Positions 43,962 to 44,146 of a DNA stretch of 64,000 nucleotides are shown here, piece by piece. The notes below the pieces were generated by a model. It was not told the origin of the DNA. It saw only the letters and a program-made list of their open reading frames with translations, and did not search any database. The position numbers were made by a program, and so were the translations under genes. Position 1 is the stretch's first letter. The number at the start of each line of letters is the position of its first letter. This stretch comes from Escherichia coli (GTDB taxonomy: Bacteria; Pseudomonadota; Gammaproteobacteria; Enterobacterales; Enterobacteriaceae), in NCBI RefSeq assembly GCF_041248615.1, contig NZ_CP158426.1, one strand, 5' to 3'.

Positions 43962-44146
43962 CAATGGCACAAATACGGCACAGGAGGAAAATGTGGTGTA
44001 ATTGAATGTGAGGTAACTACTTCACCTTTCAGCCGGGCATCTCACCGAGCACGCGAGCAAAATCGATGCGATTATAAGTCGCAATGGCACAAATACGGCA
44101 CAAGAGGAGAACGTGGTTTACTTAAATGTGAGGTAACTTATTGATT
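43962..44146. repeat. Two imperfect direct copies of a ~65-bp element (caatggcacaaatacggcaca...aatgtgaggtaact), 120 bp apart, abutting thrW
   Basis: Read from the sequence; copies start near 43962 and 44082; the second ends 4 nt from the tRNA. Confidence 0.65.

What the first reader, a model, noticed from the sequence alone, without database searches (positions are those of the whole stretch)
43962..44146. Tandem ~65-bp direct repeats immediately 3' of thrW
Two copies with about 85% identity, 120 bp apart, the second ending 4 nt from the tRNA. They do not resemble the tRNA 3' end, so they are not a simple att duplication. They could be integrase arm-type binding sites, a small RNA, or a short mobile repeat. 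The ORF-track peptide 43866..44144 (repeated QWHKYGTxGxxGxxxCEVT) is probably just a translation of the repeat.
Basis: seen in the sequence. Interest (0 to 1): 0.45.

Follow-up and report, generated by a model that had tools for sequence, protein, structure and literature searches.

The report
Stacked prophage integrase scars beside thrW
The two repeats next to the threonine tRNA gene are leftovers of the tail end of a phage integrase gene, which doubles as one arm of the phage attachment site: an old scar found in most E. coli plus a newer one from a since-deleted prophage, so the feature is real but ordinary.

Summary
The repeat is real: 43962-44022 and 44082-44142, 120 bp apart, 87-89% identical, with the first 21 nt identical.

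It is not an sRNA, a mobile repeat or a gene. Window 44023-44136 is the last 37 codons plus stop of a tyrosine integrase gene of thrW-integrating lambdoid/P22-like phages (SfX, HK542, mEp213). It is 100% identical to the attL end of a prophage in E. coli TUM9803. Copy 2 is therefore the P' arm of the phage attachment site. It carries two putative arm-type Int sites (GGCACAA at -65 and -54 from the tRNA end, the same positions as GTCCCA in P22) and an IHF consensus.

Copy 1 is the older, degenerate relic of the same int tail. It sits next to thrW, or next to the thrW fragment ptwF, in most E. coli, and here it is 100% identical to the empty site of strain CB8671.

The structure is explained by three steps. 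A prophage integrated at thrW. An illegitimate deletion then removed nearly all of it; the junction at 44022/44023 has 1 nt of microhomology. This left the new scar stacked on the old one.

Strain NRZ14408 equals the window minus exactly these 120 bp. None of 5,426 complete E. coli genomes has the two-copy form.

Interest is low.

The parts
43962..44022 (+). Copy 1: the older, degenerate relic of the integrase 3' end / P' arm that forms the native thrW-distal flank (B') in E. coli. In the int frame it reads NGTNTAQEENVV*LNVR*. It is cut 8 nt short of where the tRNA would begin.
   Evidence: With its left flank it is 100% identical to the empty thrW site of CB8671, where it continues GATTTAAA-thrW. 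The homologous unit lies next to ptwF in K-12 and next to thrW in BL21 and others.
43966..43983 (+). Copy 1 pair of putative arm-type Int sites (GGCACAA at 43966-43972, GGCACAG at 43977-43983).
   Evidence: Same block as in copy 2.
44022..44023 (.). Deletion junction between the old relic and the integrase gene fragment. T44022 is shared by both parental sequences (1-nt microhomology).
   Evidence: Exact-match tests against CB8671 and TUM9803. The BLAST split at query 123/124 is.
44023..44136 (+). Integrase pseudogene fragment: the last 37 codons (starting at the His after the catalytic Tyr) plus the TAA stop of an SfX/HK542-type tyrosine integrase.
   Evidence: Window 44023-44226 (int fragment, copy 2 and thrW) is 100% identical over 204 nt to the TUM9803 prophage attL end, and 44023-44149 is 99.2% identical to the O55:H7 DEC5B int end. 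Window 43962-44196 matches phages SfX, HK542, mEp213, mEp043 and ECP1 at 96.1%. The intact gene has PF00589 and is 54% identical to P22 Int.
44082..44150 (+). Copy 2: the intact P' arm of the phage attachment site, comprising the last 18 int codons, the stop and a 14-nt spacer up to the tRNA end.
44086..44103 (+). Copy 2 pair of putative arm-type Int sites (GGCACAA at 44086-44092 and 44097-44103, that is -65 and -54 from the tRNA 3' end).
   Evidence: HK542 attP has G(G/T)CACAA at -65, -54, +112, +153 and +164, all on one strand. P22 has GTCCCA at -65, -54, +100, +154 and +165. The 21-nt block is invariant in diverged Serratia and Shimwellia prophage ints and has two differences in Enterobacter.
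44134..44146 (-). IHF consensus (AATCAATAAGTTA = WATCAANNNNTTR) between the arm sites and the core; a putative H' site. It is destroyed in copy 1 by the deletion.
   Evidence: 7 matches in 64 kb, one of them here. The same consensus at the same place in P22 attP was read by eye from the sequence.
44151..44196 (-). 46-nt att core identity segment: the 3' part of thrW shared with the phage attP.
   Evidence: HK542 and P22 attP sequences. The 46-nt core for SfI/SfII/SfV/SfX/P22 is stated in PMC3636060.
44151..44226 (-). thrW, tRNA-Thr(CGU), intact.
   Evidence: ARAGORN; Rfam RF00005 at 71.8 bits.
43688..43903 (+). Context: C-terminal fragment of the LysR-family gene yagP, the chromosomal neighbour of the relic.
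   Evidence: PF03466; K-12 and NRZ14408 annotation.

Best explanation
The repeats are two stacked scars of the same kind of sequence. That sequence is the 3' end of the integrase gene of thrW-integrating lambdoid/P22-like phages, which doubles as the P' arm of their attachment site.

Shown: copy 1 is the old relic that flanks thrW (or the thrW fragment ptwF) in most E. coli. The 59-nt spacer plus copy 2 are the last 37 codons, the stop and the 14-nt spacer of a modern int gene, abutting the 46-nt att core inside thrW.

Inferred history:
1. The ancestor had a CB8671-type empty site: yagP', relic, thrW.
2. A TUM9803-type prophage integrated by Int-mediated crossover in the thrW core. This placed its own int 3' end / P' arm next to the complete thrW and moved the old relic to the far end (attR).
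3. An illegitimate deletion with 1 nt of microhomology ran from just after the catalytic-Tyr codon of int to 8 nt before the displaced thrW fragment. It removed the whole prophage, the P arm and the duplicated core.

The 120-bp structure can collapse further by recombination within the identical 21 nt. That gives the single-copy, phage-allele site seen in NRZ14408.

Functionally the DNA is most likely inert for the host. Copy 2 with the thrW core still has the sequence make-up of an attL half-site (two arm-type Int sites and an IHF site). Copy 1 has only the arm-type pair.
For: - Window 44022-44226 is found exactly in the TUM9803 attL end, and 43930-44022 exactly in the CB8671 empty site. Neither match extends one base further.
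- The int frame is continuous from the His after the catalytic Tyr to the stop.
- The same int end occurs next to thrW in 679 of 5,426 E. coli genomes, in phages SfX, HK542, mEp213, mEp043, HK75, HK446, mEpX2 and ECP1, and in Enterobacter, Serratia and Shimwellia prophages.
- The HK542 record annotates attP at this spot.
- The relic lies next to ptwF in K-12 and next to thrW in empty sites.
- Relic alleles carry a frameshift (K-12 type) or a premature stop (copy 1 type), as expected of a pseudogene piece.
- A longer 204-nt int relic with an internal stop exists at thrW in EcPF7.
- Relic-body diversity is 11.8%, against 2.4% in the flank. Mosaic alleles occur, as expected if phage arms repeatedly replace the flank.
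- NRZ14408 is identical to the window over 6,131 bp except for the exact 120-bp difference.
- The arm-site architecture matches P22 position for position.
Against: - No genome with the intermediate state (intact prophage flanked by the CB8671-type relic) was retrieved, so the order of events is inferred. In TUM9803 the far prophage end abuts another element, not the relic.
- The direction of the 120-bp difference from NRZ14408 (loss there, or separate origin) is not proven.
- Int and IHF binding to the motifs is inferred from sequence and from analogy with P22. The P22 sites were recalled from the literature (Smith-Mungo et al. 1994), which could not be opened here.
- No sequenced phage carries the copy-1 or K-12 allele, so the phage origin of the older relic rests on homology and architecture.
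Confidence: 0.9

Rival explanations
1. The relic is kept by selection as a working accessory site. Host-borne arm-type and IHF sites next to attB would change how thrW phages integrate or excise, for example by making attR a near-complete attP or by acting as an Int decoy. The doubled copy would strengthen this effect.
For: The first 21 nt (the arm-type pair) show 1.2% diversity among E. coli alleles, against 11.8% for the rest of the relic. The pair and the IHF consensus are intact in copy 2.
Against: The 21-nt block is no more conserved than the neutral flank (2.4%). It is simply the far edge of the phage/host homology, beyond which phage-driven allele replacement cannot reach. The doubled form is absent from 5,426 genomes and is lost in the otherwise identical NRZ14408. 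No assay is available here.
Confidence: 0.06
2. The repeat encodes a small RNA or a cis-acting RNA element downstream of thrW, such as a co-transcribed trailer or a terminator.
For: It lies directly downstream of a tRNA gene. One terminator-like hairpin occurs on the thrW strand at 44083-44067.
Against: No Rfam match other than thrW itself, plus a sub-threshold antisense match over thrW. Folding z-scores lie between -1.6 and +0.75 on both strands. No promoter-like site was found, and one terminator-like site against 0.8 expected by chance. The hairpin lies in the int-derived spacer, which single-copy sites lack.
Confidence: 0.02
3. It is a local tandem duplication or an assembly artefact of the thrW flank.
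For: The closest genome differs only by the 120 bp, and no other genome has the structure.
Against: The 59-nt spacer is not present in single-copy sites and is int coding sequence. The two copies are different alleles, each identical to a different natural sequence. A duplication or a collapsed or expanded repeat would not produce that.
Confidence: 0.02
4. It is a short dispersed mobile repeat (of the REP, ERIC or MITE type).
For: None beyond the existence of two copies.
Against: Only two copies occur in the window. E. coli genomes have at most 3-4 matching places, and the lysogen sites inspected (TUM9803, E. albertii L017, E. coli L089) lie in thrW-linked att sites of tandem elements. No terminal inverted repeats were found.
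Confidence: 0.01

Closest known systems
attP / attL P' arm of phage P22 (thrW-integrating, lambda-type heterobivalent Int)
   Same: The 46-nt core in the thrW 3' end is the same. int converges on the tRNA and ends about 14 nt from it. A tandem pair of arm motifs lies at -65/-54 inside the last int codons, and three more at about +100 to +165 on the other arm. An IHF consensus sits next to the tRNA end. The Int proteins are 54% identical.
   Different: The arm motif is GGCACAA instead of GTCCCA, which implies a different arm specificity, and the C-terminal tail of Int differs accordingly. In the window only the P' arm survives, without the rest of int, the P arm or the phage.
attP of Shigella serotype-converting phages SfX/SfV/SfII/SfI and coliphages HK542, mEp213, mEp043, HK75, HK446, mEpX2
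   Same: Window 43962-44196 matches their int 3' end and attP at 94.8-96.1%. Their integration into thrW next to proA and the 46-nt core are published (PMC3636060). GenBank annotates attP there.
   Different: Those are complete phages. The window holds a 128-bp remnant (44023-44150). Published and annotated attP descriptions cover the core only, not the arm motifs.
Prophage remnants and tandem att scars at tRNA genes, e.g. CP4-6 with ptwF at thrW in K-12, or the DLP12 int/argU overlap
   Same: A decayed integrase fragment and repeated att-derived sequence lie beside a tRNA gene used as an integration hot spot.
   Different: The duplicated part here is the arm (the int tail), not the tRNA-derived core. 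The deletion removed the duplicated core fragment.

Membership tests
P' arm of a lambda-type attachment site (P22/SfX class, thrW) | Lies directly beside the core identity segment that the phage shares with the tRNA 3' end. | tested here: met
   Copy 2 ends at 44150. The 46-nt identity with HK542 and P22 attP spans 44151-44196.
P' arm of a lambda-type attachment site (P22/SfX class, thrW) | Repeated arm-type motif present on both arms of attP, unlike the core sequence. | tested here: met
   G(G/T)CACAA occurs five times on one strand in HK542 attP. Only 9 of 2000 shuffles had any 7-mer at 4 or more copies. Positions match the P22 GTCCCA sites. The block is invariant in diverged Serratia and Shimwellia prophages and has two differences in Enterobacter.
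P' arm of a lambda-type attachment site (P22/SfX class, thrW) | IHF bending site between the core and the arm sites. | tested here: met
   AATCAATAAGTTA at 44134-44146 (-) fits WATCAANNNNTTR. The same consensus was read by eye in P22. This is consensus evidence only.
P' arm of a lambda-type attachment site (P22/SfX class, thrW) | Binding by the Int N-terminal domain and a role in recombination. | not testable with these tools
   Needs footprinting or EMSA and recombination assays.
Tyrosine integrase gene (Pfam PF00589) | Homology to intact family members. | tested here: met
   Window 44023-44226 (int fragment plus thrW) is 100% identical in nucleotides to the int 3' end and thrW of TUM9803. 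The intact TUM9803 protein hits PF00589 at 1e-34.
Tyrosine integrase gene (Pfam PF00589) | Complete catalytic domain (R-K-H-R-H-Y). | tested here: not met
   Only the 37 codons downstream of the catalytic Tyr remain. This is a pseudogene fragment, not a gene.
Simple att duplication (attL/attR direct repeats) | The repeat contains the core, i.e. the tRNA 3' segment. | tested here: not met
   Copy 1 ends 8 nt before where the tRNA fragment would start, and no thrW fragment follows it.
Simple att duplication (attL/attR direct repeats) | The repeats bracket an integrated element. | tested here: not met
   Only 59 nt of int sequence lie between the copies.
Small RNA / structured RNA | A known family, a stable conserved fold, or its own promoter and terminator. 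| tested here: not met
Dispersed mobile repeat (REP/ERIC/MITE) | Many copies at unrelated loci. | tested here: not met
   Two copies in the window. At most 3-4 places per E. coli genome. The multi-place genome inspected (TUM9803) shows a thrW-linked tandem array.

The most novel reading that the evidence does not exclude
The thrW flank of E. coli is not a naked attB but a standing attL-like site. Its arm-type and IHF sites would be continually refreshed from phages by recombination within the arm homology. These host-borne sites, doubled in this strain, would measurably alter integration, excision or Xis-dependence of SfX/HK542-class phages, making the scar a host-side modulator of lysogeny.
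Probability: 0.06. Interest if true: 0.5.

Novelty: already known. Interest (0 to 1): 0.15.

Why it matters
Mostly as housekeeping. The result explains a puzzling repeat, shows that ORF 43866-44144 should not be annotated, and marks 44023-44136 as an integrase pseudogene fragment.

It also gives a small, clean example of how tRNA-linked integration sites evolve. The host flank of thrW is itself an old piece of phage attachment-site arm. It is much more variable than its surroundings (11.8% against 2.4%) and mosaic, consistent with phage arms overwriting it. This strain and NRZ14408 appear to capture two successive steps of that process in otherwise identical DNA.

The inferred arm-type motif GGCACAA, at positions matching P22's sites, could help anyone engineering HK542/SfX-class integrases.

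Tried and rejected
- Rfam scan of 42500-45500 at a permissive threshold found only thrW.
- Folding each copy and the whole unit on both strands gave no signal.
- The promoter/terminator scan gave nothing above chance.
- The genome-contig scan with the 15-mer CACAAATACGGCACA was mostly wasted. Only six enterobacterial loci were informative.
- The metagenome scan for the unique junction found nothing.
- I tried to see the far prophage end next to the old relic in a lysogen. In TUM9803, E. albertii and E. coli SCPM-O-B-8794 the far end abuts another integrated element instead.
- I looked for a phage carrying the copy-1 or K-12 relic allele. The only 100% hit, phi458, turned out to be a record that includes K-12 host DNA.
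- The P22 att-site paper could not be opened, and literature searches for ptwF and arm-type sites gave nothing specific.
- I considered and rejected a microhomology-rich or site-specific origin for the junction: only 1 nt is shared.

Full report
**Observation.** The region holds thrW (tRNA-Thr CGU) at 44151-44226 on the minus strand. proA lies beyond it at 44341-45594, and a C-terminal fragment of the LysR-family gene yagP lies at 43688-43903. The repeat finder gives a 57-nt direct repeat, 43962-44018 and 44082-44138, 89% identical, 120 bp start to start. Extended to 61 nt it is 53/61 identical, and the first 21 nt are identical. With three mismatches allowed, the 21-mer occurs nowhere else in the window, against 0 expected. 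The copies are separated by a unique 59-nt spacer. Copy-to-copy similarity stops 8 nt from the tRNA.

**What the sequence is.** A megablast of 43900-44150 against 5,426 complete E. coli genomes split cleanly at 44022/44023.
- The left part matches the yagP-proximal flank, which in K-12 lies next to ptwF, the thrW fragment at the far end of cryptic prophage CP4-6.
- The right part matches the 3' end of a gene annotated as site-specific integrase that converges on thrW in O55:H7 DEC5B.
- In the integrase frame the window reads HLSAGHLTEHASKIDAIISRNGTNTAQEENVVYLNVR*. These are the 37 codons that follow the catalytic tyrosine (RYAH...) of the intact protein.
- The intact protein has the Pfam Phage_integrase domain and is 54% identical to P22 Int.
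- The same int end plus the 46-nt thrW core is found in phages SfX, HK542, mEp213, mEp043, ECP1, HK75, HK446 and mEpX2 at 94.8-96.1%. The HK542 record annotates attP exactly there.
- Integration of the Shigella serotype-converting phages and P22 into thrW through a 46-bp core is published (PMC3636060).
- 679 of 5,426 E. coli genomes carry this int end next to thrW. So do prophages in Enterobacter cloacae, Serratia bockelmannii and Shimwellia pseudoproteus.

**The repeat unit is an attachment-site arm.**
- In HK542 attP the heptamer GGCACAA occurs at -65 and -54 from the tRNA 3' end, inside the last int codons, and at +112 and +164 beyond the core. A variant, GTCACAA, lies at +153. All are on one strand.
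- Only 9 of 2000 shuffles give any 7-mer four times.
- P22 attP has GTCCCA at -65, -54, +100, +154 and +165.
- Five arm-type Int sites and two IHF sites are what I recall being mapped on P22 attP (Smith-Mungo et al. 1994). I could not open that paper, so this is a lead from memory. The positional match itself is a computed result.
- The 21-nt block AATGGCACAAATACGGCACAA is unchanged in the Serratia prophage, whose surrounding int codons have diverged heavily.
- Between the arm pair and the tRNA, AATCAATAAGTTA (44134-44146, minus strand) fits the IHF consensus WATCAANNNNTTR. I read the same consensus at the same place in the P22 sequence.
- Each copy therefore starts with a putative pair of arm-type Int sites.

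**Why there are two copies.**
- Single-copy (empty) thrW sites in E. coli already carry this unit between yagP and thrW. K-12 has it between yagP and ptwF.
- It is a decayed piece of int. The K-12-type allele has a 1-nt deletion and the copy-1-type allele has a premature stop. EcPF7 has a longer, 204-nt int relic with an internal stop at the same place.
- In the window, 43930-44022 is found exactly in CB8671, whose empty site continues ...AACTACTT GATTTAAA thrW.
- Window 44022-44226 is found exactly in the attL end of a P22-like prophage in TUM9803, whose int reads ...CGCT CACCTTTCAG.
- Neither match extends one base further, so the junction has 1 nt of microhomology.
- The simplest history has three steps. 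The ancestor had a CB8671-type site. A TUM9803-type phage integrated into thrW. An illegitimate deletion then removed everything from just after the catalytic-Tyr codon of int to 8 nt before the displaced thrW fragment.
- That history is inferred. I did not find the intermediate lysogen, and in the lysogens I inspected the far end abuts another integrated element.

**Micro-evolution.**
- The whole 6,131-bp locus of NRZ14408 equals the window with 43962-44081 removed, with no other difference.
- A crossover inside the identical 21 nt turns the window structure into the NRZ14408 site, whose single copy is the phage allele.
- Among eight chromosomal alleles, diversity is 11.8% in the body of the relic, 2.4% in the yagP flank and 1.2% in the first 21 nt. 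Alleles are mosaic near the tRNA.
- This fits repeated overwriting of the flank by phage arms through recombination within the arm homology. It removes the need to invoke selection on the 21-nt block.
- No complete E. coli genome has the two-copy form, and the junction is absent from the metagenome contigs. The structure is a strain-specific, probably transient scar.

**Rivals.**
- Small RNA: no Rfam match other than thrW itself, plus a sub-threshold antisense match over thrW. Folding z-scores lie between -1.6 and +0.75. There is no promoter-like site, and one terminator-like site against 0.8 expected.
- Mobile repeat: copy numbers and locations exclude it.
- Local duplication or assembly artefact: the spacer is int sequence absent from single-copy sites, and the two copies are different natural alleles.
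- Selected host function for the relic: this cannot be excluded without experiments, but nothing requires it.

**Comparison and verdict.** The feature works like, and by sequence is, the P' arm of a P22/SfX-class attachment site fused to an older relic of the same arm. It is not an intact integrase gene, since it lacks the catalytic domain. It is not a simple attL/attR duplication, since copy 1 has no core. Prophage and integrase remnants beside tRNA genes are well known. All the pieces here are 100% identical to sequences already in public genomes. Novelty: already known. Interest: low (0.15). The modest added value is a clean example of stacked scars and of phage-driven turnover of an attB flank.

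Noticed in passing
window 44163 and 44177 (equivalent positions in L009 2632-2707): thrW of E. coli CB8671 differs from the window at tRNA positions 50 and 64. U50-A64 becomes G50-C64, a compensatory change in the T-stem that lies inside the 46-nt att core. It may be a host or phage allele of the tRNA 3' half exchanged through integration.
   Followed up: partly
L135 1-720 (OP434518.1, phage phi458): The 'complete genome' record of phage phi458 contains K-12 host DNA: yagP (annotated as 'tail assembly protein Orf55'), the K-12 relic and the thrW 3' fragment. These are followed by an arm carrying P22-type GTCCCA motifs. The record therefore seems to include an attR junction rather than pure phage DNA.
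   Followed up: partly
window about 43324-43903: By the annotation of the identical NRZ14408 locus, a 5'-truncated ykgR and a 5'-truncated yagP lie about 280 bp apart. In K-12, yagP is followed by paoD and paoC. The genes between yagP and ykgR therefore appear to be deleted in this lineage, which comprises 191 of 5,426 genomes with this arrangement.
   Followed up: no
L008 8796-10400 (E. coli TUM9803): There is a tandem array at thrW. The P22-like prophage is followed by a second thrW 3' fragment and then another element with a tyrosine recombinase gene. Similar arrangements occur in E. albertii L017 and E. coli L089.
   Followed up: partly
L136 212-415 (E. coli EcPF7): A different, longer scar sits at thrW: 204 nt of int 3' end with an internal stop replacing the catalytic Tyr codon (RR*AHL). 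It ends in a K-12-like allele without the K-12 frameshift.
   Followed up: partly
window 44067-44083, minus strand: A terminator-like hairpin (TGCGACTTATAATCGCA followed by TCGATTTTGC) lies on the thrW strand, inside the integrase-derived spacer. It is at chance level for the region: 1 found against 0.8 expected.
   Followed up: no
L016 (Photorhabdus caribbeanensis), minus strand about 1504 and 2789: Two similar units of roughly 60 nt contain CACAAATACGGCACA and lie 1285 nt apart. Each precedes a hairpin-like AAAGCC(A/G)GACTA(G/A)CCG(G/A)CTTT sequence. They are unrelated to thrW as far as seen. Unexplained.
   Followed up: no
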